DNA of 64,000 nucleotides from Escherichia coli (GTDB lineage Bacteria > Pseudomonadota > Gammaproteobacteria > Enterobacterales > Enterobacteriaceae): assembly GCF_041248615.1 (NCBI RefSeq), contig NZ_CP158426.1; one strand, 5' to 3'. The notes beneath the pieces were generated by a model. It saw nothing but the letters and a program-made list of their open reading frames with translations. It was not told the origin of the DNA and did no database searches. A program made the position numbers and the translations under genes. Shown here piece by piece: positions 11,453 to 62,101 of this stretch (position 1 is its first letter; each line of letters opens with the position of its first letter).

Positions 11453-11510
11453 CTCATTGTTTCTTTTCTGTGTATCACCGTCATCATTCCCATCTGATAA
11501 CCTATTGAAA

Positions 11511-11954: not shown

Positions 11955-11958
11955 AACG

Positions 11959-12863: not shown

Positions 12864-12865
12864 CG

Positions 12866-15318: not shown

Positions 15319-15328
15319 TTCCGTTTCT

Positions 15329-17718: not shown

Positions 17719-17729
17719 CTTTCAGCTCC

Positions 17730-18005: not shown

Positions 18006-18008
18006 AGG

Positions 18009-19129: not shown

Positions 19130-19131
19130 TG

Positions 19132-19554: not shown

Positions 19555-19577
19555 GCTGTGCTCCTTAGCGAATGGGG

Positions 19578-19853: not shown

Positions 19854-19872
19854 ACTGCATTTCTCCTGTGGA

Positions 19873-20223
19873 TTATGAGTGGAGTTCCCGGAAGGGAATC
19901 CCTTTTACCAGGCGGGCAGCGTTAGAGCCAATGCTGCGCCGGGCATGGTTATCTTGTTGATACATCAGCGTAAACAGTGGCGCTGATGCCGGTAAGTTTT
20001 TGTAATGCACAATCAGTTTTTCCTGATCGCAGGCAATGCCAACCAACAGGGGAGATTGACTAGCAGCCAGCCAGGCGCTATCGATAACTTCACCTGACGG
20101 AATGTGTTGAATGCGAAAGGGAATACCTTCCTCTTCAATGCCAAGAAGCACCTCATCCCATATAGTGATGCAGTTACCGATCTCCATGACGACGATGGCT
20201 GGTGCACGCTCTTTACTTTCCAT
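19873..20223 (-). CDS. pduH: diol dehydratase reactivase small subunit PduH
   Basis: 116-aa ORF overlapping pduG stop; conserved position. Confidence 0.85.
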
Positions 20224-22045: not shown

Positions 22046-22054
22046 AGTTCGTCC

Positions 22055-22573
22055 TTAATCGTCGCCTTTCAGTTTTTTGCGCTCGACATAAAGTTCCGCA
22101 GCTTCACGGACAAATGCAGCACAAATTTTGGCCTGATAACGCCGTTCAAGATCGTCAGCAATGGCAATAAGTTCTTGCTTAGTCGAACGATAAGGGCGTA
22201 ACGCATTGTAGATTTCGAGGATGCGATCATCCGGTACTGAGGTAAGCTCAGCGGCGCGTTCAAAATTCATCGCCAGGCGATCGCGACCAGCATCTCTGGC
22301 AATCGCGGCCTGAATACGCAATGTTTCAGGGGTTATACGCATATCCTGGGCGGTGACGTTATCGCTGAGTACATTTTCCAGAGTGAAATCGTCGAGCGTT
22401 TTATTGGTCGCCGTTTTAACCCATTCCGGATGTTTATTTGCCAGCGGATAATCCGTCACTTTGGCGCTCTGTATTGACGCGTTGGGTGCCGCAGAAACAG
22501 GAGCTGCATCCTGTAAACTGTTCATGCGATTCAACACGTCCCTGACCATCGACTCAATTGCATCGGTATTCAT
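22055..22573 (-). CDS. pduE: propanediol dehydratase small (gamma) subunit PduE
   Basis: 172-aa ORF in conserved order after pduD. Confidence 0.88.
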   Translation of the reverse strand: MNTDAIESMVRDVLNRMNSLQDAAPVSAAPNASIQSAKVTDYPLANKHPEWVKTATNKTLDDFTLENVLSDNVTAQDMRITPETLRIQAAIARDAGRDRLAMNFERAAELTSVPDDRILEIYNALRPYRSTKQELIAIADDLERRYQAKICAAFVREAAELYVERKKLKGDD

Positions 22574-22587
22574 GAAGGTTTCCTTTG

Positions 22588-23256
22588 TTAAAACGTCACG
22601 CGCAGTTCTTGCGGTTTTTTGCCAGTGACCACGTACTTCGTCTCTTTAATATGCAAAATGGCAGATTTGGCCTGGTATTTCGGCCGCGCCATTTGATCGT
22701 TGAGGGTCGGCACCGGTTGTGGAGACTCACGCTTTGCATAACGCGCGGCGTTTTTGCCAATCTGACGATAAGTTTCCAGCGTCAACAAAGGCGCTTGTGG
22801 GAATAGTTCCAGGTTAGACAAGGGAGGAAGACCTTGCTGGTGGATAACCGTTGTGCCTTTCGACTGAATACCGATAGCAATACCTGAACCACTAAGACGA
22901 TCGCCTTCGACTGCTACGAATGCGACATCGGACGATTTAAAGCAGCGAATCACACGGGCTTTAATGCCTTCTTCTTCGATACCAGCAATCACTTCGCGCA
23001 AGATGTTTTTATGCGGAATACCGATGATATTGACGGTTTGCGCCAGGCCGAACGCCGGGCCTACAGCAATAATGACTTCATCTTGCTGAGTGCCTTGTTG
23101 GGCTTCGCCAATTTCGGCCAGAAAAGTTCCGGTATCTGGCGCGGAAGAGACAGTTGCACAGGCAGGTGCGCGAAATGAAACGGGCTTGTCGCTGGTTTGC
23201 ATTTCTGCCAGCACGTCTTCGATAATCTGACGCAGTAATTTTTCGTTAATTTCCAT
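22588..23256 (-). CDS. pduD: propanediol dehydratase medium (beta) subunit PduD
   Basis: 222-aa ORF in conserved order after pduC. Confidence 0.88.
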
Positions 23257-23265
23257 TTCTCACCC

Positions 23266-24930
23266 TTAGTCAATTTCGTTGGGATCAAGTGCACCGGGAA
23301 TATTTTTGATCTCTTCCCAGCGTTCCCCTTGCAGGCGGTAACCTGTAGCCGGTCCGGCGTAATCATTGACGTCATTGACCGCAGAGAGCACTTGTCCGTC
23401 ATCGACGATGATGGCTGAGGTATGGAGATAATCGCCGGTCAGTTTTGCTTTTTGCATGTTGAGCATGTCTTGGGCGACATCGGTAAAACCGCCTTGCGCC
23501 AGGGCTTTCACCACTTCCAGGCTGTTCCGGTTTTTATTGATAATCTCCTGGGCGAACTTGATGTCTTCCACAATATTGCGCTCAGGCATATCTTTTGAAC
23601 CGTGGGCATAGGTTGCCGCTTCGACTTCTTCATCGGTAATAGGCGGTAGTCCCATACCGGCAAAGACAGCCTGTAAAGCGCGAGCGGCTTTATTGCGGAT
23701 AGCGATAACATCTTCTTCGCGTACTGGTCGCAGGCCGCCATCAACCTTCAGGTCACGCTGAATGACGTTGTAATCATCGAAGTCTTCAGCATCTTCGTTT
23801 GAACCAGCAAACATGTTGTCGTAGTTCGGCACAGCGGAAAAACCGGAAGAGATAAAGTCGGTACCTGGCAGAAACTGCATCAGGAAACGTGCGGTACGGC
23901 GCATATCCGAGTGGGTAAAGGTCTGGTCATTACTGGAGGCGCATTCCAGATCCAGCGATGAGCAAATTAAGTTTTCCGCTAATACTGCGCGGATGCCTGA
24001 TGGCACAGCCGATGGAACACCGATGCAGCTTACCGAACCATTCTGTAGACCCTGAACTCCTGCGGCTTTGGTGATGTAAATGCAACGAGCCTCGAGATAA
24101 AGCATTGATTTGCCTTCCGCGTAACCCATCTGTACTTCAGAGCCGGAGCCGGAAGTAAAGCGCATTTTTAAGCCGCGAGACGCATAGGATGACGCGAGAA
24201 ATCCTTTTGACCACGGGGTGTCATCGCCATCGGTGAAAACAGGTTCTGTACCATAGACAGAAATTGTTTCGGCGTAACAGGTGTGGCCTAACATACCGAG
24301 TTTCAGTTCGGTGGCTTCTTCCAGTGAACACTGGGTCAAGACGCCCGGACGTCCCACCTGTGAGCCGACCAGCAGGGCGATGGCGTTGAACGGGGCATAG
24401 CGAGCAACGGCAACGGTGGTTTCCTGTTCATCAAACCCGCGCCATGCGCCTTCAGCTGCGTCGGCGGCAATTTGTACCGGGTTATCTTTGACGTTGGTGA
24501 CGTGAGCCTGTTGTGATGGTGTTCGACGGGCGCGCATTTTCTGCATCGCCATCATCATCTCTACCACGTTCATCTGCGAAACAACTTCGACGATTTTTGC
24601 AGGCGTCATTGCTGTGGTAAGGGGAACGATATCGCTACGTTTGACATTTGGATCGCACAACATATTGGCAAGTTTTACCGAATCCATCGCGATGACTTCT
24701 TCTGCACGCGCGAGATTGATGCCGTAGCGGGCGATAAAGTGGTCGATCAGGTCAAACTGGCTGGCGGGTTTTCCATCCAGTTCGGTAACGACGCCGTTAA
24801 CAATTTTGATTGACGGTTTAGGATCGTTCGGGCTTTCCATCGCAATGAAGCCTTCTTCAATCCACTCTTTAACGAAACCGTCCTGGTTGACCGGGCGTTT
24901 TGCCAGTGCTTCAAATCTTTTCGATCTCAT
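23266..24930 (-). CDS. pduC: coenzyme B12-dependent propanediol dehydratase large (alpha) subunit PduC
   Basis: 554-aa ORF MRSKRFEALAKRPVNQDGFVKEWIEEGFIAMESPNDPKPSIK... Confidence 0.92.
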   Translation of the reverse strand: MRSKRFEALAKRPVNQDGFVKEWIEEGFIAMESPNDPKPSIKIVNGVVTELDGKPASQFDLIDHFIARYGINLARAEEVIAMDSVKLANMLCDPNVKRSDIVPLTTAMTPAKIVEVVSQMNVVEMMMAMQKMRARRTPSQQAHVTNVKDNPVQIAADAAEGAWRGFDEQETTVAVARYAPFNAIALLVGSQVGRPGVLTQCSLEEATELKLGMLGHTCYAETISVYGTEPVFTDGDDTPWSKGFLASSYASRGLKMRFTSGSGSEVQMGYAEGKSMLYLEARCIYITKAAGVQGLQNGSVSCIGVPSAVPSGIRAVLAENLICSSLDLECASSNDQTFTHSDMRRTARFLMQFLPGTDFISSGFSAVPNYDNMFAGSNEDAEDFDDYNVIQRDLKVDGGLRPVREEDVIAIRNKAARALQAVFAGMGLPPITDEEVEAATYAHGSKDMPERNIVEDIKFAQEIINKNRNSLEVVKALAQGGFTDVAQDMLNMQKAKLTGDYLHTSAIIVDDGQVLSAVNDVNDYAGPATGYRLQGERWEEIKNIPGALDPNEID

Positions 24931-24948
24931 AAATCTGCCTCAGAGAAT

Positions 24949-25761
24949 TCAGATGTAGGAAGGGCGATCGTTTTTCGGTGTATCGCCGAGAGTCGAAAGC
25001 ACGGTTTTACCGATTTCGCGTGCGGAGATGACCGCCTGGCGGACTGCGCCGGAGTCACCCGAGATAATCAGAATGACTTCATTGCTGTAGCTGGTGCCTT
25101 GAGCGGGGGAGCTGTATGCCACAACATCCACATTGGCGGACTTCAGCGCGGTGTCTGCCATCAGAACACCCACAGCAGCCGGAGCGCCGACAATAACGCC
25201 GCAAGCCCGTCCCAATGGTGCACCAAACGCTTTTTCCAGTGCATAGCTGGCGCGGGCGGTATATTGCAGCTCAAGATGTCCGGCTTCGTTGGCATAGACA
25301 TCGCCAAAGGTTCGATCGAGTTCTTTCAGGGCAACTTCAATACCGCGTTTCACGTCGGAAACATCGTTGCCACCTAAGAGGATCAATGAGCCGTGTCCGG
25401 CACCGCCTTTAGTATCGCGAGGAAGTTCAATGCTAATAACTTCAGTGTTGGTGGCTTTTACCGCTTCATCAGCGGCCATAATGTGTGGACCTGCGCCAAT
25501 ACGCGCACCCAGAATGCCAATGGAACGATAGCGTTTTTCAAGTTTCATTGCGTCCAACAGGGCGCTATCAACGTTCGCAATGACCAGACCTACAGTGTCG
25601 CCAATAGCGGTGCCAACAAATTCTGTTAATGTGCAGCTTTTTTCTGCCATAGCCGTCTCTCGTATTTGATGAGTGGTTTTCGGGAGAACCTCATGCTCTG
25701 GCGTCGCTACGCGAGCGATGACCTGCGCCATGATCTGTTCGACCAGTTCATTGCTGCTCAT
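24949..25761 (-). CDS. pduB: BMC shell protein PduB (tandem BMC; internal start at Met38 would give PduB')
   Basis: 270-aa ORF; second in-frame Met 37 codons in matches the known PduB/PduB' arrangement. Confidence 0.9.
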
Positions 25762-26042
25762 GGGTTAATTCCCTTTGGTAAGATTTTTTCGACATCGGTA
25801 TGTGGGCGGGGAATAACATGTACGGCTTTTACTTCGCCGACGTTACGCGCAGCTGCGGCACCTGCGTCTGTTGCCGCTTTTACCGCCCCGACATCACCAC
25901 GAACGATGACGGTCACCAGCCCGGAACCTATTTTTTCGTAGCCGACCAGCAAAACATTTGCCGACTTCACCATGGCGTCTGCGGCCTCTATGGCGGCAGT
26001 TAAGCCTTTGGTTTCTACCATTCCTAACGCTTCTTGTTGCAT
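25758..26042 (-). CDS. pduA: BMC shell protein PduA
   Basis: 94-aa canonical [34 protein letters not shown]...; first gene of operon. Confidence 0.92.
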
Positions 26043-26553
26043 AAAGACCTCGCCTGGATTTTTTTGACGATATGACTATAAAAAAAAGCGAGGAAAAAGA
26101 ATGGCTGACTTAATCGGCTAATGAGAAAAATTAATAGAGAACAAATATTATAAAATTGCTTTTATGAACTATATGTTGTTAATTTATTAGTTGTTTTGTG
26201 GATATTTCAATGTGAATTAATTGCGTTGGCTAGTGAGTTTAATCGCGAGTAATATTTCGTTGAGTTTAGTTCGAGGAAGGAACTGTGATATTTGTTTCAA
26301 TTTTATTATATCATGATGGCAATTTTTTATTGTGAAAGTTTGACAGTAATTATTACTTTCAACACTGATTAACGCTGTGTTGCATGATTCGGCAATGACA
26401 ATAATTTGTTATGTTAGCACGATTTTTACACGAGTCTGTCATGCATGTTGGCAATATTTTCTGCAGAGCAATTTTTTATAGTTGCGCTCGGTATACACAA
26501 CAATCAGCGCATAGTTGGCTGATAAAGAAAAACTCCGTAAAGAAGGTGTCACT
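26043..26553. promoter_or_regulatory. divergent pdu / pduF-pocR control region
   Basis: 510-bp AT-rich non-coding interval between divergently oriented pduA and pduF; in Salmonella this interval carries PocR-, CRP- and IHF-dependent promoters. Confidence 0.6.
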
Positions 26554-27363
26554 ATGAATGATTCACTCAAGGCGCAATGCGTTGCCGAGTTTTTAGGCAC
26601 CGGACTGTTCCTCTTTTTTGGCATTGGTTGTTTGTGCGCCCTGAAAGTTGCCGGGGCAAGTCTGGGACTGTGGGAAATTTGTATCATTTGGGGGTTAGGG
26701 ATTTCGCTTGCTGTTTACCTTACGGCAGGTATTTCCGGCGCTCATCTCAACCCGGCAGTTACCATTGCTCTGTGGCTGTTTGCCTCTTTCCCAGCCCGTA
26801 AAGTGCTGCCATTTTGTGTGGCGCAATTAGCGGGTGCTTTTGGTGGTGCGATTCTGGCATATTCTCTCTACAGCAGTTTATTTACCGATTTTGAATCTGC
26901 TCACAATATGGTGCGTGGTAGCGCAGAAAGTTTACAACTCGCCAGTATCTTCAGTACTTATCCGGCAGCGGCGATTAATGTATGGCAAGCTGCGTTGGTC
27001 GAAGTGGTCATAACGTCCATGTTAATGGGGTTGATTATGGCGTTGACCGATGACGGTAATGGCGTACCCAAAGGACCACTTGCGCCTTTACTTATTGGTA
27101 TTCTGGTTGCTGTTATTGGTGCTTCTACCGGACCATTAACCGGTTTTGCCATGAATCCAGCGCGTGATTTTGGACCTAAGATTTTCACCTGGCTTGCGGG
27201 GTGGGGAGAAATTGCGATGACTGGTGGACGCAATATTCCTTATTTCATTGTACCCATTATTGCACCGATCATTGGGGCATGTGTTGGTGCGGCGATTTAT
27301 CGCTATCTCATTGCAAAGAATTTACCTGTCAATAGTGTAGCGCCTAAAGAAATTAGCGAATAA
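26554..27363 (+). CDS. pduF: propanediol diffusion facilitator (MIP/aquaglyceroporin family)
   Basis: Two NPA motifs (HLNPAVT, AMNPARD); start placed at MNDSLKAQ (ORF track extends 13 codons upstream); start uncertain. Confidence 0.85.
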   Translation: MNDSLKAQCVAEFLGTGLFLFFGIGCLCALKVAGASLGLWEICIIWGLGISLAVYLTAGISGAHLNPAVTIALWLFASFPARKVLPFCVAQLAGAFGGAILAYSLYSSLFTDFESAHNMVRGSAESLQLASIFSTYPAAAINVWQAALVEVVITSMLMGLIMALTDDGNGVPKGPLAPLLIGILVAVIGASTGPLTGFAMNPARDFGPKIFTWLAGWGEIAMTGGRNIPYFIVPIIAPIIGACVGAAIYRYLIAKNLPVNSVAPKEISE

Positions 27364-27565
27364 CGAAATAATCTGGCAGTTATAAACGTTTATTTTTTTA
27401 CTGTTTGTGATCTGCTTTCCGAACTTATTAAAAAGTCTCCCGCTTCATGGAGGCTTTTGTTATTGTCCTTTGTGCTTCTCGTCAGTAAATCATCAGGGAT
27501 GATGTGAAGATTAAATGTAAAACAATTGTTTTGCTATAACAATAAATTAACTGGGAGGTTTTATC

Positions 27566-28480
27566 ATGATTTCTGCGGCGACACTTAATTCAGAACTCAT
27601 TAATAAAATCGCGCAGGATTTTGCGCAGGCGACCAGCCTTGCGGTTGTCGTGGTCAATATTCACGGCGATGAAATTTCCGAGCTGTTTAACTTCACTCCA
27701 TTTTGTCAGATGATGCGGCAACACCCTCAGCTAAGCACTCGATGTCGCATGAGCGATCGTTGTGGGGGCCTGGAAGCCTCTAAATCCGATCAGCCTTGTA
27801 TTTATCGCTGTCATGCCGGATTAACCGATTTCTCTATTCCACTGGTAATCGCCGGGCATTTAGTCGGTTTTGTATTGTGCGGGCAAGTTCGTCTGCGTAA
27901 TGATGATGTCGATTTGGTCGATATTCTGAATGTCGATGATTGCTGGCAGGCAGATCCCGAATTACTTAATGAATTCCGCAAAGTTCCTGAGATGGATTAC
28001 TCAAGAGTTATGGCCTCTGCTGATTTGTTGAAGTTGATTGTGGAAAATTGCCTCAAAAAACAACTCAATTTTGTGGTTATTAAAGAGAACAAATTTCAGT
28101 CAGATTCGGTGCGCCAGACTCGTGCGCCTAATCCCCACGACAATAAAATGAAAAAAGCTTTACGCTATATTGATGCGCATTTATCAGACGATTTGCGTCT
28201 GGAAGATGTCGCCTCGCACGTTTATCTAAGTCCTTATTATTTCAGTAAGTTATTCAAGAAATACCATGGAATCGGTTTTAATGCGTGGGTAAACCAACAA
28301 CGGATGGCCAGCGCTCGTGAGTTACTGTGCCATAGTGACTGGAGCATCGCCAGTATTGCGCGTAATTTAGGTTTTTCGCAAACCAGTTATTTTTGCAAAG
28401 TTTTCCGTCAGACTTATCAGGTTACGCCGCAGGTGTATCGACAGCAAGTGAGTGAAAATGCGGTGATGGAAACGGTATAG
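27566..28480 (+). CDS. pocR: AraC-family regulator of pdu/cob expression PocR
   Basis: 304-aa ORF, C-terminal AraC-type HTH (YLSPYYFSKLFKKYHGIGFNAWVNQQRM...), position next to pduF. Confidence 0.88.
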   Translation: MISAATLNSELINKIAQDFAQATSLAVVVVNIHGDEISELFNFTPFCQMMRQHPQLSTRCRMSDRCGGLEASKSDQPCIYRCHAGLTDFSIPLVIAGHLVGFVLCGQVRLRNDDVDLVDILNVDDCWQADPELLNEFRKVPEMDYSRVMASADLLKLIVENCLKKQLNFVVIKENKFQSDSVRQTRAPNPHDNKMKKALRYIDAHLSDDLRLEDVASHVYLSPYYFSKLFKKYHGIGFNAWVNQQRMASARELLCHSDWSIASIARNLGFSQTSYFCKVFRQTYQVTPQVYRQQVSENAVMETV

Positions 28481-28584
28481 AGTAAATGCCCCAAAAAAAG
28501 AGGACGGTTTAAATAAACTCTGCAATGAATAATTAACGTTATTTACCTGTTATGGGAAAAGTGAAATCAGCTCATAACATACGC

Positions 28585-37197: not shown

Positions 37198-37273
37198 TCC
37201 TCTGTAGTTCAGTCGGTAGAACGGCGGACTGTTAATCCGTATGTCACTGGTTCGAGTCCAGTCAGAGGAGCCA
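37198..37273 (+). tRNA. asnW: tRNA-Asn (GUU); integration target of downstream island
   Basis: 76-nt sequence identical to asnU/asnV on plus strand. Confidence 0.95.
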
Positions 37274-37434
37274 AATTCAAGTTTTCATGCTTATCTGTAC
37301 GTCTCTATTTGTTTACGATTCAGTAAGTTAGCGTGAAAATCCTTCCCGGTGCGTATCTGGTTTTCTCTCTGTATCGGGATAATTTGGTGGTCAGATCTGG
37401 GGTCAGTTTGGTTCGATTCTGGAGTGACCCCCAA

Positions 37435-38696
37435 ATGTCTTTAAACGATTCTAAAATCCGCAAGTTAAAACCCTCTTCCCGTCTGGTAAAACTCTCCGAC
37501 TCTCACGGTCTGTATCTGCTCGTCAATCCGGGCGGTTCACGCATCTGGTATCTCAAATATCGTTTCAACGGAAAAGAATCCAGAGTCAGTCTTGGCGCAT
37601 ACCCGCTTGTCTCACTGGCAGAAGCCAGGCAACAGCGCGACGGTATCCGTAAGTTACTGGCGCAGAATATCAACCCGGCGCAGCAGCGCATGGCGGAGAA
37701 AGCGGCCTGCTCCCCTGAAAAGTGCTTTAAGGCAGTGGCGCTGGCCTGGCACAAAACCAACAAAAAATGGTCGGCTGATTATGCCGCCCGTATTCTCGCC
37801 AGTATGGAAAACCATATCTTCCCGGCGATTGGTCATCTGCCAGTTGCCACTCTTAAAACGCAGGATTTACTGCTTTGTTGCGGGTTATCGAGGATAAAGG
37901 CTTTCTGGAAGTCGCGTCCCGAACCCGGCAGCAACTCAGCAACATCATGTGCTATGCCGTTCAGCAGGGGCTTACCGAAAGCAATCCGGCGCAGCATCTG
38001 GATGGCGTTGTCGCCTCACCCGTAAAGAATCACTACCCCGCGTTACTGCTGGAGCGGTTGCCCGAACTGCTTGGCCGCATCGGTGACTATCAGCAGGGCC
38101 GGGAGTTAACACGGCTGGCGGTGGTGCTGACGTTGCACCTGTTTATCCGTTCCAGCGAACTGCGTTTCGCCCGCTGGAGCGAGATCGATTTCAGGCACAA
38201 AATCTGGACCATCCCCGCCACCCGCGAGGCAATCGACAAAGTACGGTTTTCGGGGCGTGGCGCAAAAATACGTACCCCGCATATCGTGCCGCTCTCCCGC
38301 CAGGCGATTGCCATTCTGAAACAGATACAGGAGCTTTCCGGCCATCTGGATCTGGTGTTTCCCGGTGATCATAACCCGTACAAGCCAATGAGTGAAAACA
38401 CCACCAACCGGGCGCTACGCCTGATGGGGTATGATACGAAAACTGAAATCTGCGGGCATGGACTCAGGGCGATGGCCTGTAGCGCCCTGGTGGAGTCGGA
38501 GCTGTGGTCACGCGATACGGTGGAGCGGCAAATGAGCCACCAGGAGCGTAACAGCGTGCGGGCAGCCTATGTGCATAAAGCGGAGCATCTGGAGGCCAGA
38601 AAGGCCATGATGCAGTGGTGGTCGGATTATCTGGATGTGTGCCGCGAGGGGTATGTTGCGCCGTACATTTATGCCCGGCAGCATAAGGCAGCCTGA
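37435..38696 (+). pseudogene. P4-type tyrosine integrase, interrupted by a frameshift near 37870
   Basis: N-terminus MSLNDSKIRKLKPSSRLVKLSDSHGLYLLVNPGGSRIWYLKYRFNGKESRVSLGAYP typical of P4-family integrases; reading frame changes between ORF 37333-38025 and ORF 37875-38696. Confidence 0.8.
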
Positions 38697-38849
38697 ATCA
38701 GAAATAACGGAAATCATTAAAAATGTAAAAGCAGATCCTGATTGACCGGGATCTGCTTATTGTATTGAGAAGTATTACCATTTTTCTGTTATTATCAATC
38801 GGAAAGTATCTAAAAATATTTGGCCCCAAATAATTTTGGTGAAAACCAA

Positions 38850-39270
38850 TCAATAAACCATTTATCAATAGGTAAGTACCGGAAATTATTCCAGTAGAAT
38901 ATTTTCAGGCGATTGCCTATTAATAAATACATTATTGATAGATAAGTGCCTTCTGTGATTTGTCCGCAAATCACAGAAGATGAAAACCTATCAATACGGG
39001 ATATTTTCACGGAAATACCAATTAATACTCCAGAATATCTCCTGACCATATACTCTGAAACCTGTAAGAACTGCATCAGATATTGAGAGACCATATAGAT
39101 ATAAGTCTGAAATTATTTTGTTTCCAATGATTTCAGGCGAAAACCTATCAATGCATCTGTTTTCAATAGGCAGCCACCTTCCGTGATTAACATGTTAATC
39201 ACGGAAGGTGAAAAGCTATCAATAATCGATATTTTCACGGAATTACCACTTAATACATCCCAAAAAATGC
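38850..39270. repeat. AT-rich array of ~110-bp imperfect direct repeat units, each containing a GTGATT-type palindrome
   Basis: Palindromes cttctgtgattt-gtccgc-aaatcacagaag (38950-38979) and ccttccgtgattaac-at-gttaatcacggaagg (39177-39208) with compensatory arm changes; flanking tatcaata and gatattttcacgg motifs repeated. Confidence 0.65.
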
Positions 39271-39852
39271 GCCATAAAATACCGGGCAATCTTTCCTGAT
39301 ACACATTATCACTGCACCAGCTATACAGAGACAAAATAATCTGCACCAGCCCCTGTAAATCGGTTATTTGTGCCAGTGTCCCGCCGCTCTACCTGTTCAG
39401 GGTTGTGCCAGTTTCTGGCCCTTTGGTTTTCGGCCCTTTCCGGTCAGGCGCTGTTACCCTTATTGCCCCTTAACCTTTATGACCCTTTCCCTTTCTGACG
39501 CAACCAGTTTATTTTGAAATGCTCCATGACAGTCTGCACCAGACTGTATTTTCACCACAGGATAACGATCACAAAGTGCAAAAAAATAACATGAAGCACC
39601 GAAGATTGTTAATCTATATGTAGCAGGTAATGATGTCAAAAACTGTCGCAGCATTTTTTATAAAATTATGAGACATTCTGTGGGCATATAATATATGTCA
39701 CAAGATGCAGGAAAACAAAGAGAGAGTTTTCAGATATAATCCCGCGTTAGAATTAATGTGATGCCCCGGTGAATTTACATTTTAAAATTTCCCTGTCCCG
39801 TAATATCGGTAAAAACGATTGAAACACCAACTATTAATCGGGAACGTCTCGA

Positions 39853-39871
39853 GTGATTACAGGGTAATCAC
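39853..39871. repeat. third GTGATTA palindrome
   Basis: gtgattac-agg-gtaatcac; same half-site as the two palindromes at 38950 and 39177. Confidence 0.55.
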
Positions 39872-40033
39872 TATAATATCCCGGCAAACTATATTGGTTA
39901 AGCAGGAGAATCTGATCAGTTGATATTTATTCGTCATGCTGTAACGATATTTTCACAATATAAACCCGTTCGCCCCCTGCGCCAGATCCGGTACAGAGGG
40001 TACGATAAATCGCTGTCGTTACGCAGTAACGTA

Positions 40034-40650
40034 CTATTTTGCGACATTCATGAATTCAGTCATTCCTCCCTCCAGCGGTAGCCGTACACCTGTTTCACCC
40101 AGCGACCGCGACCGTCGCCATGACCCAGATCCGTCGCCGTCAGCGCCAGTGACTCCTTTTCGCTGAATCCCTGCGCCAGTATCCAGGACTGTCGTATAAC
40201 GGGGACGCCCGCCTTTGGTGCCAAATACCACTTTTAGCCGGGTTTCACCGCGGGAAATGGCTTTCAGCCACGTTTTCAGCGACTGTGAACTCTGTACCGC
40301 CTCCTGCGAACGCAGCCCCATCAGCCGCGCAATCTCCAGGCTGCTGCCAGCCCTGCGTCCTGAGTACGGGCTTTCTCCATCACCTGCCTGCGTCCAGCCT
40401 GTCTCAGCACGGCCCGCAACGCTGCCATTTCGTTTTGCAACGTTCGTAAACCAATATCCAGCTCCAGCCGTTCCTCAATGTAGCATTCGATATGGCGAAC
40501 CTTGATCTGCTCCACCCGCTGGATCTGGATATTCAGCGCCCGTAAATGTTCACTGAACCGTTTTGTAATATGGATACGGTCATTCACCGTTTTGAAGCTG
40601 CCGCCCGCTTTCTTCGCCAGCGCCTTCATTTCACTGCTTAATTTACTCAT
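40034..40650 (-). pseudogene. tyrosine recombinase-like remnant (frameshifted, truncated)
   Basis: ORF 40321-40650 resembles integrase N-terminal SAM-like core-binding domain; adjacent ORF 40034-40321 in another frame carries a GTKGGRPR segment; total too short for an intact recombinase. Confidence 0.4.
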
Positions 40651-41416
40651 GAATCCCTCTGCAACAAAAACAAACAGTCTCCGGCGTGTGCTTTTTGGCT
40701 GCGCCAGAACGATACCTTTACGCCGGAGTGGTAGTTTGTTGAGGTTTAGGGAGTTTCAGGCTGTACGCAGTACAGACTGCCTGCGAAGCAGGAGTGTCTC
40801 CGGGGCTTCTTGCCCCCCTCGGTATCGATCTTTTTCTCCTTTACTCTTAGCTGACAGCGGCCCCAAAGGGCATGTCAGACGGCGGAAATATGGCGCAGGC
40901 CAGAACTGGCGCGGCTTGTGGCGGTGAGTTGTGCGGCGTCACTTTGCTTTTTCGCTGGCGCGACCAAAGTGACGCCTCGTCTGGTGCAGGGGGTAAACGT
41001 TACGTTTCTGGTGCAGGGTGACGGTCACGCGGCAGCAAAGCCTGACGGCAATGCAGGCCGCAGCCCGTCAATGTAAGGCGCTGGTTGTCAGCAGAAGATA
41101 AAACCCGGCAAAGCCAGAGTGTCAGCCCGTAAAGCCGGGTATCTGGTGCAGTGATGGTGTATATGTACGTCAGTCTCAGATGCAGGTATTTTTGCATCCC
41201 CGGCGTTTTCAGAGATCAACGCCGGTAAAGGATGCCATGCTGGCGAAGCCAGGCGCTTCTTTCAGACGTGAAGCGACAAAGGGACTGCCCGGAGGCAGTT
41301 TGTTGCAGGCGGGAGACTGCGCCATTATTTCTGGTGCAGGAAGGAAAAACTGTTTCCGGGTTTAAAAGATTGTTTGCTTACCTGGTGACGGAAAAACTGC
41401 CGCGCTTCGCTTGTCT

Positions 41417-41460
41417 TCTCCCGGCGCGCTGCCAGCAAAAGCAGGCAGCGCGCCGGGAGA
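41417..41460. repeat. perfect 17-bp inverted repeat with 10-nt spacer
   Basis: tctcccggcgcgctgcc-agcaaaagca-ggcagcgcgccgggaga. Confidence 0.7.
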
Positions 41461-41566
41461 GTCTGGTTTTACTGTAACAATGCGCCTGACGGTTCAGCCA
41501 TCAGGATCGGCGTTTATGCATGAGTCTTCCGGTACGGTTGCCCCGATCATCGATGTATCTGGACGG

Positions 41567-41755
41567 TCAGATAATTTCCGGTGATGTTTCCAGCGCATCC
41601 GCAATCAGTTTTTCGCCGCGCGGCCTGGAGCGGGTCAGCGCATTTGCCAGCGTGGAAGACGCCAGCCCGGCCCTGCGGGAAACCTCAGCCAGCGATGTTC
41701 CCTTTTTTCTCAGGCCCGCGATAATATCGGCGGGGTGCCAGTCGGGTTGCATCAT
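41567..41755 (-). CDS. Ner/Nlp-like HTH DNA-binding protein (short form)
   Basis: 62-aa ORF with DWHPADIIAGLRKKGTSLAEVSRRAGLASSTLANAL, close to the Ner/Nlp (SfsB) signature. Confidence 0.7.
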   Translation of the reverse strand: MMQPDWHPADIIAGLRKKGTSLAEVSRRAGLASSTLANALTRSRPRGEKLIADALETSPEII

Positions 41756-42213
41756 GCTGGCCTCCCGTCGATAACCTGTATGCCGTCAGCAGTACATATC
41801 CAGCGTGGGGCGTTCAGATTGGCGGCAAAATACCAGACCAGTTCGCACAGCAGCCCGGTCAGCGTGGTTTCGGTTTCCGGCAGCAGCACGTGGCCGTTCA
41901 GTATCTGCGTCAGCGCCAGGCAGTAATCGCAGAGTGATCCTGCATCAGGCTCAAAACCGGGTGAAACATCGGGAAGATCATTCGTAATAAACCCGTCAAT
42001 CAGATGTGGTGGGATCGGCTCGTTCAGCGTGGGCCGCAACAGTGCAAGACAGGTATTAAGCCTGCCACAGAGCGCCGTTTTCAGCGCCGGATCGCAGCAC
42101 TCGATGAGCGTTGTGGCAACGCGATCGCAGTACTCCGCCAGATCGGTGAAATCGGTAGCGGCACTAAAGGGAACAGCAAGTAAATTGCATTCAGAGGTGA
42201 GAGTAGTCGCCAT
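41752..42213 (-). CDS. hypothetical Cys-rich protein (153 aa), translationally coupled to Ner-like gene
   Basis: ORF overlaps downstream Ner-like start by 4 nt (ATGA); 9 Cys; no recognisable family. Confidence 0.45.
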   Translation of the reverse strand: MATTLTSECNLLAVPFSAATDFTDLAEYCDRVATTLIECCDPALKTALCGRLNTCLALLRPTLNEPIPPHLIDGFITNDLPDVSPGFEPDAGSLCDYCLALTQILNGHVLLPETETTLTGLLCELVWYFAANLNAPRWICTADGIQVIDGRPA

Positions 42214-42734
42214 AAGGCCGTCTACAGTGAGTGATAAATATTCCAGCCACTGGAGAGGCTAATCTCACGGGTGGTGGAACCGGACGGGGTTAGCCTTACC
42301 AGCCTCACTGACACTGGCGCGTCTTTCGACGCCCCCGCCCGATCCCGCCATTGAGATGAGACCGTGCGCGACACACAAATATTGTATCGTCAGTGAGGAT
42401 CTTCAGGAGGCTAATCCCGACGCCTGATTTTGCAGGCGCGGCGCAACAATACAATGTTCGGTAATTTTCAGCAAGAGGTTTAGCGGAAGCAGACGCACAG
42501 GAAAATACAATCACGCGATAAATATTAAATACAATTATATTTATATAAAATATATATTGAGCAATATGCAGACACTTTCCAGTAAATATCCTGTCAGTTA
42601 ATTCGTCCCGTTGATATCAGTCAAAAAAATAAATGTAAAAAGAGCGTATTTCGTTTCATACAGTAACGTTATTTATCATTTTGTCCGGTGTCGCCAGCAT
42701 CAGGCCAGATGAACCATAAAAAAGGATATCAGCG

Positions 42735-45700
42735 ATGAGCGGAAAACCGGCAGCACGTCAGGGCGATGCCACAATGAAAGGTGGCCCGATAGTCCAGGGG
42801 TCGGCAGGCGTGAGGATTGGCGCGCCAACCGGCGTGGCCTGTTCAGTGTGCCCCGGCGGATTCACTTCCGGTAACCCGGTGAATCCGCTGCTCGGTGCAA
42901 AAGTACAGCCCGGCGAAACCGATTTCGCGCTGCCCGGCCCGTTACCGTTCGTGCTCTCCCGCACCTACAGCAGCTACCGGACGAAAACCCCTGCGCCCGT
43001 CGGTATCTTCGGTCCTGGCTGGAAAGCACCCTTTGATATCCGCTTACAGATACGCGATAACGAACTGATACTCAATGATAACGGTGGCAGAAGCATTCAT
43101 TTTGAGCACCTGTTTCCCGGTGAGGATGGCTTCAGCCGCAGCGAATTATTCTGGCTGGTGCGCGGCGGCGTGGCGAAACTGAATGAAAGTCACCGTCTTG
43201 CCCCACTCTGGCAGGCTCTGCCGGAAGAACTCCGCATGAGTCCGCATATTTATCTGGCGACGAACAGTCCGCAGGGGCCGTGGTGGATACTCGGCTGGAG
43301 TGAGCGGGTACCGGGTGTGGATGAGGTGCTGCCTGCGCCATTGCCGCCGTACCGGGTGCTGACCGGCCTGGTGGACCGCTTCGGGCGTACCCTGACCTTC
43401 CGGCGTGAGGCAGTTGGCGAATTTACCGGGGAAATCACCGGCGTGACCGATGGCGCAGGCCGTCAGTTCCGCCTGGTGCTGACCACGCAGGCGCAGCGGG
43501 CGGAAGAGGCCCAGCAGCAGGCGGTTGCAGCCGGAGCAAAACGACCAGATATCCCGGTTTCATTGCCGGACTATACAGAATATGGCCGGGATAACGGCAT
43601 CCGCCTGTCAGCGGTGTGGCTGACGCATGACCCGGAATACCCGGAGAATTTACCTGCCGCGCCACTGGTGCGCTACGACTGGACGCCACGCGGTGAACTG
43701 GCGGCGGTGTATGACCGCAGCGGTACGCAGATGCGCCACTTTACTTACGATGATAAATACCGGGGCCGGATGGTGGCGCACCGTTACGCAGGCAGGCCGG
43801 AGATGCGTTACCGCTACGACGACATCGGGCGCGTGACGGAACAACGTAATCCGGCGGGTTTAAGCTACACCTATCAGTATGAGAAAAACCGCATCATCAT
43901 CACCGACAGCCTGAACCGGTGCGAGGTGCTGCATACAGAAGGCGAAGCCGGGCTGAAACGGGTGGTGAAAAAAGAGCACGCTGACGACAGCGTCACACAG
44001 AGTCAGTTCGATTCCATTGGCCGCCTTCAGTCACAGACGGATGCGGCAGGCCGGACGACAGAATACAGTCCGAATGTGGTGACGGGTCTCGTCACACGCA
44101 TCACCACGCCGGACGGCAGGAAATCGGAATTTTACTATAACAACCAGAACCAGTTAACCTCAGCATCCGGGCCTGACGGACTGGAAATGCGCAGGAAATA
44201 TGATGAGTACGGGCGTCTGACGCAGGAAACCGCTCGCAACGGCGATATCACCCGCTACAGTTATGATAATCCGCACAGTGAATTACCCTCTGCAACTGAA
44301 GATGCGACGGGTAGCCGCAAGCAGATGACGTGGAGCCGTTACGGGCAGTTACTGACTTTCACCGACTGCTCAGGCTACCAGACCCGTTATGAATACGACC
44401 GCTTTGGTCAGATGACGGCGGTCCACCGTGAGGAAGGTGTCAGTCTTTACCGCAGCTATGACAGCCGTGGTCAGTTAATCTCGGTGAAAGATACGCAGGG
44501 CCGTGAAACGCAGTATGAGTACAACGGTGCAGGCGACCTGACCGCCATTATCACGCCAGACGACAACAGAAGCGAGACACAGTACGATGCGTGGGGAAAG
44601 GCCGTCAGTACCACGCAGGGCGGGCTGACGCGCAGCATGGAATACGACGTTGCCGGACGTGTCATCAGCCTGACCAACGAGAACGGCTGTCACAGCGACT
44701 TCAGTTACGATGTGCTCGACCGCCTGATACAGCAGAGCGGCTTTGACGGGCGGACGCAACGTTACCGTTACGACCTGACCGGGAAACTCACGCAGAACGA
44801 GGATGAGGGGCTTGTCACCCTCTGGCACTACGACGAATCGGACCGTATCACACACCGCACGGTGAACGGCGAACCGGCAGAGCAGTGGCGGTATAACGCC
44901 CACGGCTGGCTGAAAGAAATCAGCCACCTGAGCGAAGGTCACCGGGTGGCGGTGCATTACGGCTATAACCGTAAGGGACGTCTCACCGGCGAGCGCCAGA
45001 CGGTGCATAACCCGGAGACGGGGGAACTGCTCTGGCTGCATGAGACAAAACACGCCTACAACGAACAGGGTCTGGCAAACCGCGTCACGCCGGACTGCCT
45101 GCCTGCTGTGGAGTGGCTGACCTACGGCAGCGGTTACCTGGCGGGGATGAAGCTGGGCGACACGCCGCTGCTGGAGTACGCGCGCGACCGCCTGCACAGA
45201 GAAACGGTGCGCAGCTTTGGCAGCATGGCAGGCAGTAATGCCGCATACGAACTGACCAGCACATACACCCCCGCAGGCCAGTTACAGAGCCAGCACCTGA
45301 ACAGCCTGGTGTATGACCGTGACTATGGGTGGAATGACAACGGCGACCTGGTGCGCATCAGCGGCCCGCGACAGACGCGGGAATACGGCTACAGCGCCAC
45401 GGGCAGGCTGGCGAGTGTGCGCACCCTCGCACCGGACCTGGACATCCGCATCCCGTATGCCACGGACCCGGCGGGCAACCGGCTGCCGGACCCGGAGCTG
45501 CACCCGGACAGTACACTCACAGTGTGGCCGGATAACCGCATCGCGGAGGATGCGCACTATGTCTACCGCCACGATGAATACGGCAGGCTGACGGAGAAGA
45601 CGGACCGCATCCCGGCGGGTGTGATACGGACGGACGACGAGCGGACCCACCACTACCACTACGACAGCCAGCACCGCCTGGTGTTCTACACGCGGATACA

Positions 45701-46916
45701 GCATGGAGAGCCACTGGTCGAGAGCCGCTACCTCTACGACCCGCTGGGACGGCGAATGGCGAAAAGGGTATGGCGGCGGGAGCGTGACCTGACGGGGTGG
45801 ATGTCGCTGTCGCGTAAACCGGAGGAGACATGGTACGGGTGGGACGGCGACAGGCTGACGACGGTGCAGACTGACACCACGCGTATCCAGACGGTGTACC
45901 AGCCGGGAAGCTTCACGCCGCTCATCAGAATCGAAACAGACGTGACCGAACTGGAGAAAGCGCAGCGGCGAAGCCTGGCGGAGAAGTTACAGCAGGAAGG
46001 GAGTAAAGATGGTCACGGCGTGGTGTTCCCGCCTGAACTGGTGCGGCTGCTGGACAGGCTGGAGGGGGAAATCCGGGCAGACCGTGTGAGTGACGAAAGC
46101 CGGGCGTGGCTTGCGCAGTGCGGGCTGACGGTGGAGCGGCTGGCGGCACAGATCGAGCCAGTTTATTTGCCTGAGCGAAAAATACATCTTTATCACTGCG
46201 ACCACCGGGGACTGCCGCTGGCGCTTATCAGTACTGAAGGTGCAACGGAATGGCGTGGGGAGTATGACGAGTGGGGGAATCAGCTTAATGAGGAGAACCC
46301 GCATCATCTGTTCCAGCCATACCGCCTGCCGGGGCAGCAGTACGATGATGAATCGGGGCTGTGCTATAATCGTTATCGTTACTACGAGCCGTTACAAGGG
46401 AGGTATATTACACAGGACCCGATTGGGTTAAATGGGGGGTGGAATTTATATAAATATCCGCTGAATCCAATAAATTATGCAGATCCTCTTGGCTTAGCCG
46501 TAGATATAAACCACTTCCCAGTCAACGAAGACATACGAAATTATGCAGAGAAAGTTTGGAATAATCCTAATATCATTACAATTGGAACACATGGTGATCC
46601 TCAATCAGTATATGATGAAAATTATAATAAGATAGATGTCAAGACATTAGCTAATGAGGTTCGAAATCATCCTAAATTTAAACCTGGAATGTCAGTAAGA
46701 CTGTTATCCTGTAATACAGGAAAAGGAAATAACTCTTTTGCACAGCAATTGGCAGATGAACTAGGTGTGAGAGTCTATGCTCCTGACCAATATGACTGGT
46801 ACTATTCAAATGGTAAGGTAGAGCCTTGGGGAGGATTCTATGATGCAAACAATCAATTGCAAATGGACACGAATCAGCCTGGACATGAGTTTACATTCAA
46901 GCGAAGGAAACCATAG
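42735..46916 (+). CDS. rhs: Rhs-family polymorphic toxin (PAAR-like N-terminus, YD-repeat core, divergent C-terminal domain)
   Basis: 1393-aa ORF; N-terminus [11 protein letters not shown]...[26 protein letters not shown] like E. coli RhsA-C; many YDxxGR repeats; DPIGL...DPLGL core/toxin boundary motif. Confidence 0.9.
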
Positions 46917-46918
46917 GT

Positions 46919-47521
46919 ATGAGGTATTTTCTCTTTATATTTATAACAATCCCCCTTATCTCTGGAGGTCATATGAGTAATGATAGCGAAAAGATAATAT
47001 CAACATATTCGCTCAATTTTTTATCACCAGATGATGTGAGGAAAGAAGAACTTAAGGCATCACAAGGTGATAGTGATGCTGCATTTAAATTGTACAAATA
47101 TTACCTTTTTTGCGAGCCAAAATCATACAGAAAACAGCACGAATGGTTAATAATATCGGCAAATAATGGAAATGCTATAGCTCAATATAACTTATCAAGA
47201 GAACTTGAGTCAGAAGGAAAAGTAGATGAATCAATACAATGGCTGAAAAAATCAGCGGAACATGGTAATAATTATGCACAATATCAGATGTCAAAATATT
47301 TATTAAAAATAGGTGATATTAGAGGATCGGAATATTATCTAAACTTATCTGCGGATAACGGATGTGTATTTGCAATAAAAGATATTATCAAAAATATGAT
47401 GGATAGTGGAAGGTACGATGACGCCCTCATTTGGGTTGAAAAATTGAAAAAATTGTATCCTGACACAAATACCGAACTTTACATACAAAAAATAACGCAG
47501 AAAAAAAAGCAATCCAAATAA
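46919..47521 (+). CDS. putative Rhs immunity protein (Sel1-like repeat protein)
   Basis: ORF starts 3 nt after rhs stop; low GC like the rhs C-terminal region; Sel1-like repeats; stronger SD (ggagg) precedes internal ATG at 46970, so true start may be there. Confidence 0.6.
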   Translation: MRYFLFIFITIPLISGGHMSNDSEKIISTYSLNFLSPDDVRKEELKASQGDSDAAFKLYKYYLFCEPKSYRKQHEWLIISANNGNAIAQYNLSRELESEGKVDESIQWLKKSAEHGNNYAQYQMSKYLLKIGDIRGSEYYLNLSADNGCVFAIKDIIKNMMDSGRYDDALIWVEKLKKLYPDTNTELYIQKITQKKKQSK

Positions 47522-52208: not shown

Positions 52209-52522
52209 AATGATCCTGTTTGTACTGTCTTTTTATAATTAGTATGGAAAAGGTAACTCACATTGCCGTCGATCTATAAACGAACCTTATGAGACTACCT
52301 CGACAGAGCGCATCTGCAAATGATTTTATGGCTGATTAGCGGCAACATGAAAAATTCGATGGAAGATGAAAGCACGGGCGTTGCTGGTGTTGTTTAAGGA
52401 TTAAGCAGAGCACCCACAGGTTCGAGATATGAAACATAAAAGTCCGCATATGTACAAAATAGCACCCTGATGAGTCTGATAGACTGCATTGCATTATAAC
52501 CAGTAGGGAGGCGAGGTTAGGT

Positions 52523-53575
52523 ATGTTTTTAGCATCATTGTTGAGACGTATTGCATTTAGTTACTACGATTATAAAGCTAATAATTTCAATATTGGAAAA
52601 ACAGACTTTGTTGTCATCCATATTCCCGATCAAATTGGCGATGCTATGGCCATCTTTCCAGTTATTCGGGCGATTGAAATGCATAAAATAAAGCATCTTT
52701 TAATTGTTACTTCGACTATTAATTTAGAAGTCTTTAATGCGCTCAAACTTGAACAGACTAAATTAACATTAGTTACAATGACTATGCAGGATCACGCAAC
52801 ATTAAAAGAAATAAAAAATTTAGCGAAGAACATAACACTGCAATACGGTACGCCGGATCTTTGTATAGAGGCGATGCGTAAAAAGAACCTGAAAACGATG
52901 ATATTTATCAGTCAGTTGAAAGCAAAAACGAATTTTCAGGTTGTTGGTTTAACCATGAAGTGCTATTCCCCTTTGTGTAAGGACGCGTCCCGGATGGATC
53001 AGAGTCTCCGGGCTCCCGTACCCATGACATGGGCATTTATGATGCGTGAGGCGGGTTTTCCAGCAGTCAGGCCAATATATGAATTGCCACTAAGTGAGGA
53101 TGTACTCGATGAGGTGCGCGAGGAAATGCGATCGTTAGGAGCTTACATTGCGCTCAATTTAGAAGGTAGTGCACAGGAACGTACATTTTCATTATCGATA
53201 GCAGAAAATCTAATAGCAAAAATTCAAAGTGAAACAGATATGCCAATAGTGATCGTTCATGGACCAAAAGGGGAAGATAAAGCCAGGGTATTAGTGGATT
53301 GTTATAATAATGTCTTCCGTTTATCCTTATCACCCTCGATTAAACGTTCGGCAGCAATCATAAAAGATGCTTATATCGCAATAACTCCTGACACCTCAAT
53401 ATTACATATGGCAAGTGCCTATAATACCCCCGTTGTTGCAATTTATGCTGATTACAAAACGCGATGGCCCGCAATGGCCGATGTTTCGGAGTCAGTCGTC
53501 GTTGGGCAAAAAATTGACAATATAAGTCTGGATGAATTCGCAAAGGCATTAAAAAGTGTTTTGGCGAGAATATGA
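52523..53575 (+). CDS. yeeL: glycosyltransferase family 9 (heptosyltransferase-like) protein, apparently intact
   Basis: 350-aa ORF with C-terminal GT9-type motif ITPDTSILHMASAYNTPVVAIY; position between shiA and yeeJ. Confidence 0.75.
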   Translation: MFLASLLRRIAFSYYDYKANNFNIGKTDFVVIHIPDQIGDAMAIFPVIRAIEMHKIKHLLIVTSTINLEVFNALKLEQTKLTLVTMTMQDHATLKEIKNLAKNITLQYGTPDLCIEAMRKKNLKTMIFISQLKAKTNFQVVGLTMKCYSPLCKDASRMDQSLRAPVPMTWAFMMREAGFPAVRPIYELPLSEDVLDEVREEMRSLGAYIALNLEGSAQERTFSLSIAENLIAKIQSETDMPIVIVHGPKGEDKARVLVDCYNNVFRLSLSPSIKRSAAIIKDAYIAITPDTSILHMASAYNTPVVAIYADYKTRWPAMADVSESVVVGQKIDNISLDEFAKALKSVLARI

Positions 53576-53836
53576 GGCAGTATTTATGCATATTAATGCC
53601 GATCTGTTATGAACGGTGGTGTCATCAATACTCTGTGGCTGGTCAATCATTACAGAAAGCCAGTCTTTGGAGCAAAGCTGTACTCACCGGATACAACCAT
53701 AGTCACACCGAACGCGAATCTGGCGGTATCGCATTTTTATTTATTCATTTTCTGTGAGAGAAGGGCAAGTTCTGTAGAGGGAATGTAAAAAAGAGTGCCC
53801 CGAATGGAGCACTCTTTAAGGAATTATAGCGGAAAA

Positions 53837-61802
<7,966 letters not shown>

Positions 61803-62101
61803 GCTTACCTTCCCTGAACGAGCTAACATAAATGCGCCCTTTCTAGCACAGCGAAAAAAAGTAAATCCTGATAGCAATATGATTGAAAATTAATAACTTT
61901 TCGTTAAGCAGTTTTGGGTGTGAGTTGCAAGAGGGGAGACTACTGAATTACTCAAGTTTTATAATCGAGGGGAAAATGGTGATGGCGTCCATAGCAAAAC
62001 GCCCTCAACCATAAAGGTCGAGGGCGCTTAAGATGTCAAAAACCCGCTATCCGTTAAAAAGCAATGCTCAACTAAGGTCAGTGACATTGCGCTAAAAAGC
62101 G

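What the first reader, a model, noticed from the sequence alone, without database searches (positions are those of the whole stretch)
52523..53575. yeeL appears intact
A single uninterrupted 350-codon GT9-type glycosyltransferase ORF is present. As I recall, K-12 annotates yeeL as a split pseudogene, so this may be the functional ancestral allele.
Basis: partly seen in the sequence, partly recalled or inferred. Interest (0 to 1): 0.3.

Follow-up and report, generated by a model that had tools for sequence, protein, structure and literature searches.

The report
Intact yeeL glycosyltransferase gene, ordinary allele
The window carries an uninterrupted copy of yeeL, a sugar-transferring enzyme gene that laboratory E. 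coli K-12 has lost to one premature stop codon; the intact form is the normal state in most E. coli and is already annotated, although nobody has tested what the enzyme does.

Summary
Window 52523..53575 (+) is one 350-codon ORF (ATG to TGA), with a GAGG ribosome-binding site 6 nt upstream.

The K-12 recollection is also right. MG1655 yeeL (b4497) is flagged as a pseudogene of the same 1053 bp. Its only lesion is CAA to TAA at codon 235 (window base 53225).

The intact state is ordinary:
- The locus is in 5284 of 5426 complete E. coli genomes.
- An allele-specific probe finds Gln235 in 3628 genomes and the stop in 770.
- The stop carriers include K-12, BL21/B, strain C and many wild isolates.
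- RefSeq already annotates the identical DNA as "glycosyltransferase family 9 protein" (WP_000477867.1).
- Homologues in other genera never have a stop at that codon, so the stop is the derived state.

It belongs to a small, strongly conserved, low-GC family found at unrelated loci in Enterobacterales. More distant relatives sit in LPS-core/O-antigen-ligase contexts.

It is not coupled to the neighbouring adhesin gene yeeJ, which is frameshifted in this window.

The most likely function is an accessory heptosyltransferase acting on the LPS core. That is inference, not a tested result. Interest is low.

The parts
52523..53575 (+). yeeL, an intact 350-codon GT9-family glycosyltransferase gene (identical DNA is annotated as WP_000477867.1)
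   Evidence: ORF list. 100% DNA match to an annotated CDS. Pfam PF01075. GT-B/GT9 fold model with pLDDT 85.
53225..53227 (+). Codon 235, CAA (Gln). This is the site of the K-12/B/C nonsense mutation (TAA).
   Evidence: Translation of K-12 yeeL and pairwise alignment. Allele probes: 3628 genomes CAA, 770 TAA. BL21(DE3) is annotated 'internal stop'.
52506..52516 (+). Purine-rich Shine-Dalgarno region (GGGAGGCGAGG), with GAGG ending 6 nt before the ATG
   Evidence: Read from the sequence. Inferred to act as the ribosome-binding site.
52637..52642 (+). Codons G39-D40, the 'GD' motif aligned to the catalytic Asp13 of WaaC
   Evidence: MAFFT alignment with WaaC, WaaF, WaaU and WaaQ: Asp in all 24 sequences. 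Key-residue list from PMC3559599.
53390..53407 (+). Codons D290-H295 (DTSILH), a heptosyltransferase-type donor-binding signature D(T/S)(S/A)XXH
   Evidence: hhalign against WaaC. Alignment map D261 to D290 and H266 to H295. Signature from PMC3559599.
52943..53008 (+). Codons 141-162, a strongly conserved loop with invariant C147 and C152 that the model cannot place (pLDDT below 50). A candidate acceptor- or metal-binding element.
   Evidence: Family alignment. Structure confidence profile. The role is speculative.
53790..53817 (-). Strong hairpin terminator of the convergent yeeJ gene, in the yeeL-yeeJ intergenic region
   Evidence: Terminator scan: 12-bp stem followed by a T-run.

Best explanation
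This is the ordinary, intact allele of yeeL. It encodes a cytoplasmic GT-B-fold family-9 glycosyltransferase. Most likely it uses ADP-heptose as donor and adds an accessory, non-essential sugar to the LPS core oligosaccharide while the core is built on the inner face of the inner membrane. It acts as a stand-alone gene outside the waa cluster. K-12, B and C lineage strains carry a derived null allele (Gln235 to ochre stop), which removes the last 116 residues, including the donor-binding DTSxxH motif. Shown: the ORF is intact, K-12 has a single nonsense change, and the intact allele is common. Also shown: the family is conserved, the fold is GT9, and the catalytic-type residues are present. 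Inferred: enzymatic activity, heptose as the donor, and LPS core as the acceptor.
For: - Intactness and the K-12 lesion.
- Population: the locus is in 5284/5426 genomes; CAA in 3628 and TAA in 770; PGAP marks BL21(DE3) 'internal stop' but O157 and ST131 as intact.
- Purifying selection: 94 invariant columns across E. coli, E. albertii, Pseudocitrobacter, Erwinia and Rosenbergiella at 52-95% identity; dN/dS is 0.25 against K-12.
- Decay in K-12: the K-12 allele has substitutions at the family-invariant A117 and the near-invariant L143 and R157.
- Residues: D13 to D40, K192 to R220, D261 to D290 and H266 to H295 are kept in all members, judged against the residue list in PMC3559599.
- Acceptor clue: distant full-length relatives occur as a fusion to an O-antigen-ligase (Wzy_C) domain. 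They also occur inside a waa-like cluster with GT9, GT2, GT4, a kinase, Wzy_C, WecG and Bac_transf genes, and directly after a GT8 gene.
Against: - No experiment or paper links yeeL to any glycan.
- NCBIfam scores for WaaC, WaaF and WaaQ are far below their cutoffs (38 against 185 bits and so on), so it is not an orthologue of any named heptosyltransferase.
- The acceptor-binding N-terminal half is not alignable by profile methods.
- WaaC E222 is not kept (G250), and the third signature position is Ser, not Gly/Ala.
- GT9 also contains non-heptose transferases, so the donor is uncertain.
- In Enterobacterales the gene has no glycan-synthesis neighbours.
- No convincing sigma-70 promoter was found upstream, and expression is untested.
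- The LPS context comes from relatives that share only distant similarity.
Confidence: 0.5

Rival explanations
1. YeeL is a protein glycosyltransferase of the TibC/AAH (autotransporter heptosyltransferase) type. It would glycosylate a surface adhesin, most obviously the adjacent inverse autotransporter YeeJ.
Against: - The genes are convergent, not co-transcribed.
- yeeJ is present in only about 40% of E. coli (PMC5595812), against 97% for yeeL.
- yeeL is intact where yeeJ is decayed (ST131; this window). yeeJ is intact where yeeL is dead (K-12).
- YeeJ works when expressed in K-12, which lacks YeeL.
- Homologues in Erwinia, Rosenbergiella, E. albertii and an Escherichia variant have no adhesin neighbour.
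Confidence: 0.07
2. YeeL is a horizontally moving cargo gene, akin to a phage moron. Its role would be to alter a surface glycan used as a phage receptor, so the intact/null polymorphism would reflect phage-driven selection.
For: GC is 39% against 49% for the window. The gene sits at four or more unrelated loci in different genera. In Erwinia aphidicola it lies inside a P2-like prophage between the tail-fibre and tube genes. PHROGs holds a full-length family, phrog_27389. The E. coli locus sits between tRNA-Asn island-integration sites.
Against: There is no match by tblastn in 50,697 deposited phage genomes and no PADLOC defence-model hit. Only one of the sampled contexts is prophage, and that prophage looks degraded. 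In E. coli the gene is chromosomal, at a fixed position and nearly universal. This idea is compatible with the main explanation (LPS modification) and does not replace it.
Confidence: 0.15
3. The ORF is open but the protein is not functional or not expressed. It would be a silenced horizontally acquired gene on its way to loss, or a non-catalytic GT9-fold protein like plant PnsB1.
Against: There are 94 invariant columns across genera, including every catalytic-type residue. dN/dS is 0.25. The full-length form is retained in thousands of genomes.
Confidence: 0.2

Closest known systems
E. coli K-12 yeeL (b4497; formerly b1979/b1980, yeeL_1/yeeL_2)
   Same: Same locus (between shiA and yeeJ), same 1053-bp length, 95.6% nucleotide identity, same start and stop.
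   Different: K-12 has TAA at codon 235 where the window has CAA. K-12 also has 21 amino-acid differences, including three at family-invariant or near-invariant positions: A117G, L143I and R157S.
RefSeq WP_000477867.1 'glycosyltransferase family 9 protein' (E. coli CFSAN018748)
   Same: The encoding DNA is 100% identical over window 52300-53800, with the same CDS coordinates.
   Different: Nothing at the gene level. In that strain the neighbouring yeeJ is intact, whereas the window has a 1-bp deletion in it.
LPS heptosyltransferases WaaC (HepI), WaaF (HepII), WaaQ (HepIII) and WaaU (HepIV)
   Different: Only 11-15% identity. NCBIfam scores are far below the equivalog cutoffs. The N-terminal acceptor domain is not alignable by profile. 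E222 is not kept. The signature is DTS, not DT(G/A). The gene is encoded outside the waa cluster.
TibC / AAH bacterial autotransporter heptosyltransferases
   Same: GT-B fold related to GT9. An adhesin gene is adjacent in E. coli.

Membership tests
Glycosyltransferase family 9 (Pfam PF01075, GT-B fold) | Significant match to the family profile | tested here: met
   PF01075 scores 29.1 bits against a gathering cutoff of 22, E 7.6e-7, residues 233-321 only.
Glycosyltransferase family 9 (Pfam PF01075, GT-B fold) | Two-Rossmann-domain GT-B fold closest to solved GT9 structures | tested here: met
ADP-heptose heptosyltransferases | Catalytic Asp equivalent to WaaC D13 | tested here: met
   D40 aligns with D13 and is invariant in 24/24 sequences. 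The alignment is sequence-based; I did not check it by superposition.
ADP-heptose heptosyltransferases | Signature D(T/S)(G/A)XXH (WaaC D261-H266) | tested here: inconclusive
   YeeL reads D290-T-S-I-L-H295. D and H are kept, but the third position is Ser. That matches the WahD variant D(T/S)(S/A)XXH, not the strict consensus.
ADP-heptose heptosyltransferases | K192 and E222 donor contacts | tested here: inconclusive
   K192 is replaced by an invariant R220, and E222 by G250. PMC3559599 notes that both positions vary among proven heptosyltransferases.
ADP-heptose heptosyltransferases | Transfer of heptose from ADP-heptose to an acceptor | not testable with these tools
   This needs an enzyme assay or LPS structural analysis.
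Named LPS core enzymes WaaC / WaaF / WaaQ (NCBIfam equivalogs) | Score above the curated equivalog cutoff | tested here: not met
   38.1 against 185.3 bits (HepI), 18.7 against 134.6 (HepII), 16.9 against 170.2 (HepIII) and 15.3 against 467 (RfaQ).
BAHT (TibC/AAH) protein heptosyltransferases | Closest structural or sequence similarity to TibC, and genetic linkage or co-occurrence with its autotransporter substrate | tested here: not met
K-12-type yeeL pseudogene | In-frame stop at codon 235 | tested here: not met
   The window has CAA at 53225-53227, and the whole ORF is open.

The most novel reading that the evidence does not exclude
YeeL is an active accessory heptosyltransferase that puts a so-far unassigned, non-stoichiometric side-branch on the LPS core (or another envelope glycan) in most wild E. 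coli. The activity has gone unnoticed because K-12, B and C laboratory lineages all share the same null allele. The recurrent loss (nonsense allele, IS insertions, Shigella truncations) would reflect selection by phages or host immunity acting on that decoration.
Probability: 0.3. Interest if true: 0.45.

Novelty: already known. Interest (0 to 1): 0.15.

Why it matters
As a finding about this window it matters little. The intact gene is the common allele, it is already in RefSeq, and K-12's pseudogene status is textbook annotation that metabolic engineers exploit as a neutral integration site.

The residual value is practical. A near-universal, strongly conserved E. coli glycosyltransferase of unknown acceptor is dead in all three standard laboratory lineages (K-12, B, C). 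Work on envelope glycans, phage receptors and serum resistance in those strains therefore cannot have seen its activity. Repairing one base in K-12 (TAA to CAA at codon 235) would be a clean gain-of-function test.

Tried and rejected
- **Phage-borne gene.** tblastn against 50,697 phage genomes found nothing and PADLOC found nothing. The PHROG hit probably comes from prophage-boundary predictions. I did not verify that.
- **Sequence search of the PDB.** The single sequence gave only WaaF at E 1.5. The profile gave WaaC at E 0.07. Both are too weak to use alone.
- **Literature.** Searches for yeeL gave only author-name noise, strain tables where yeeL is an integration site, and an H-NS position study. 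None has functional data.
- **Promoter scan.** No site lay in the shiA-yeeL intergenic region, and the count did not exceed shuffles.
- **Short contigs.** Those for P0109 and P0114 gave no usable context.

Full report
**Observation**

The window has a single uninterrupted ORF at 52523..53575 on the + strand: 350 codons, ATG start, TGA stop. A purine-rich stretch (GGGAGGCGAGG) ends 6 nt before the ATG. Given the segment's 39% G+C, the chance of 350 stop-free codons is about 1.4e-11. The longest open run in 2000 shuffles was 159 codons. The same coordinates are an annotated RefSeq CDS (WP_000477867.1, 'glycosyltransferase family 9 protein') in E. coli CFSAN018748, whose DNA is 100% identical over window 52300-53800.

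**K-12 comparison**

MG1655 annotates yeeL (b4497) as a pseudogene at 2052276..2053328, on the strand opposite to shiA. It lies between yeeJ and shiA and is exactly 1053 bp long.

Translation shows one in-frame stop at codon 235. A gap-free alignment shows this is CAA in the window against TAA in K-12, at window base 53225. There are 46 nucleotide and 22 amino-acid differences in all. There is no frameshift.

**How unusual is the intact allele?**

It is not unusual.

- The locus is found in 5284 of 5426 complete E. coli genomes.
- I used 41-mer probes centred on codon 235. Megablast needs a 28-base exact word, and every such word in a 41-mer spans the SNP, so the probes are allele-specific.
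- The CAA probe hit 3628 genomes and the TAA probe hit 770. About 886 genomes with the locus matched neither probe, presumably because of nearby SNPs.
- TAA carriers include MG1655, DH1, MC4100, BL21(DE3), strain C and many isolates from humans, pigs, dogs and poultry. PGAP flags the BL21(DE3) copy 'internal stop'.
- O157 and ST131 copies are annotated as intact 1053-bp genes.

The stop is therefore a natural polymorphism of the lineage that contains the three classic laboratory backgrounds. In 23 homologues from E. coli, E. albertii, Pseudocitrobacter, Erwinia and Rosenbergiella, the column is Q, K, T or R and never a stop, so the stop is the derived state.

Other independent disruptions exist in sampled genomes: ISSen4 and IS1 insertions, truncations, and partial forms in Shigella sonnei.

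**What the protein is**

- **Profile matches.** Pfam assigns GT9 only over residues 233-321 (29.1 bits, cutoff 22). NCBIfam hits to HepI, HepII, HepIII and RfaQ are far below their cutoffs. It is therefore not an orthologue of any named LPS heptosyltransferase.
- **Family.** Homology search shows a compact family: E. coli/Shigella 93-96%, a second Escherichia variant 73%, E. albertii and Pseudocitrobacter about 66%, Erwinia about 61%, Rosenbergiella about 54%. After that, scores drop sharply to generic GT9 at E about 1e-3.
- **Conservation.** The family alignment has 94 invariant columns. dN/dS between the window and K-12 is 0.25.
- **Signs of decay in K-12.** The K-12 allele has substitutions at invariant A117 and near-invariant L143 and R157. 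This is suggestive of relaxed constraint, not proof.

**Catalytic residues**

PMC3559599 lists the key WaaC residues as D13, K192, E222, D261 and H266, and the heptosyltransferase signature as D(T/S)(G/A)XXH. In a MAFFT alignment of YeeL, 19 relatives and K-12 WaaC, WaaF, WaaU and WaaQ, the mapping is as follows:

| WaaC residue | YeeL residue | Status |
|---|---|---|
| D13 | D40 | Asp in all 24 sequences |
| K192 | R220 | invariant Arg within the YeeL family |
| E222 | G250 | not kept |
| D261 | D290 | kept |
| T262 | T291 | kept |
| G263 | S292 | Ser, not Gly |
| H266 | H295 | kept |

hhalign independently gives D290 to D261 and R220 to K192. The signature DTSxxH equals the variant reported for the D,D-heptosyltransferase WahD. 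The paper notes that only D13 and H266 are universal among proven heptosyltransferases, and both are present here. This supports a working GT9 enzyme, probably heptose-specific, but the donor is not proven.

**Acceptor: context evidence**

Within Enterobacterales the gene is a lone, low-GC (39% against 49%) insertion at unrelated loci:

- between shiA and yeeJ in E. coli;
- beside mtfA, with no yeeJ, in the 73% variant;
- between tonB-side genes and yciA in E. albertii;
- after an MFS transporter gene in Erwinia persicina and Rosenbergiella;
- inside a degraded P2-like prophage tail module in Erwinia aphidicola.

None of these has glycan-synthesis or adhesin neighbours.

A profile search of 1.84 billion representatives found more distant full-length relatives. 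Of those on contigs long enough to judge:

- one is a fusion of a Wzy_C (O-antigen ligase type) domain to the YeeL-like module, next to a GT4/deacetylase gene;
- one lies in a waa-like cluster with a second GT9, two GT2, a GT4, a kinase, two Wzy_C genes, WecG and an initiating transferase;
- one directly follows a GT8 gene.

This is the basis for proposing the LPS core as acceptor. It is guilt by association from distant relatives, so I give the full mechanism about 0.5.

**Relation to yeeJ**

The adjacency invites a TibC/AAH-style hypothesis, but the evidence is against it.

- The genes are convergent.
- yeeJ is in about 40% of E. coli (PMC5595812), against 97% for yeeL.
- ST131 has intact yeeL beside a decayed yeeJ remnant.
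- K-12 has the reverse pattern.
- This window has intact yeeL beside a yeeJ with a 1-bp deletion near 56390. The deletion splits it into ORFs 53837..56293 and 56769..61877.
- YeeJ promotes biofilm when expressed in K-12, which lacks YeeL.

**Mobility and phage link**

PHROGs contains a full-length family of unknown function (phrog_27389, 749 bits). However, tblastn against 50,697 phage genomes found nothing, and PADLOC has no model for it. The single prophage context and the low GC suggest horizontal movement, not a phage-borne gene family.

**Allele divergence**

Against K-12, yeeL (95.6%), the yeeL-yeeJ spacer (91.2%) and yeeJ (95.5%) are about twice as divergent as yeeN, amn and shiA (about 98%). 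Only 102 of 5285 genomes are at least 99% identical to the window over this region. The window therefore carries a minority intact allele in a fast-evolving segment.

**Literature**

No functional study was found. yeeL appears only as a neutral integration site in K-12 engineering strains and as a landmark for a reporter insertion.

**Verdict**

Novelty: already known. Interest: 0.15. The remaining open question is what this conserved orphan GT9 enzyme glycosylates. A one-base repair in K-12 together with LPS mass spectrometry would answer it.

Noticed in passing
window 53837-61877 (break near 56390): The inverse-autotransporter adhesin gene yeeJ (long, UMN026-like form) is frameshifted in the window. 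A 1-bp deletion ('CTCAGGTGAAG' against 'CTCAGCGTGAAG' in CFSAN018748) splits it into ORFs 53837..56293 and 56769..61877. It could be a real pseudogene or a sequencing error.
   Followed up: partly
window 37434-47500: There is an island remnant next to the third tRNA-Asn (37198-37273). By homology to CFSAN018748 it holds frameshifted integrase genes, small hypothetical genes, a 4-kb RHS core protein gene and a TPR protein gene. It is absent from the K-12 asnW-yeeN interval.
   Followed up: no
window ~11500-28500: A complete pdu propanediol-utilisation microcompartment operon with pocR/pduF and a cobalamin riboswitch is present, which K-12 lacks at this position. One pduS-like gene is annotated as frameshifted in the near-identical strain. 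I did not check this in the window.
   Followed up: no
window 1-7300: This is the end of a P22-like prophage (DNA ejection proteins, Arc/antirepressor genes, a tailspike-like 'head-binding' protein) abutting dacD.
   Followed up: no
window 52943-53008 (YeeL residues 141-162): One of the most conserved stretches of the family (VGLTMKCYSPLCKDASRMDQ, with invariant C147 and C152, plus C114) is the only part the structure model cannot place (pLDDT below 50). The cysteines are specific to the narrow Enterobacterales clade. It may be a metal site or an acceptor-binding lid.
   Followed up: partly
L003 9001-10134 (Erwinia aphidicola CP188307.1): The YeeL homologue sits on the opposite strand inside a P2-like prophage, between a truncated tail-fibre gene and the tail tube gene. 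The sheath gene appears to be missing. This is the slot where P2-like phages carry morons.
   Followed up: partly
L013 1955-4288 (metagenome contig SRR5023860_205744): A 777-aa protein fuses an O-antigen-ligase-type Wzy_C membrane domain to a complete YeeL-like GT9 module. I am not aware of this ligase-glycosyltransferase architecture having been described.
   Followed up: partly
window 53576-53836: The yeeL-yeeJ intergenic spacer is only 91% identical to K-12, the most divergent stretch in the 10-kb comparison. Many lineages (for example ST131) lose homology to the window about 140 bp past the yeeL stop.
   Followed up: partly
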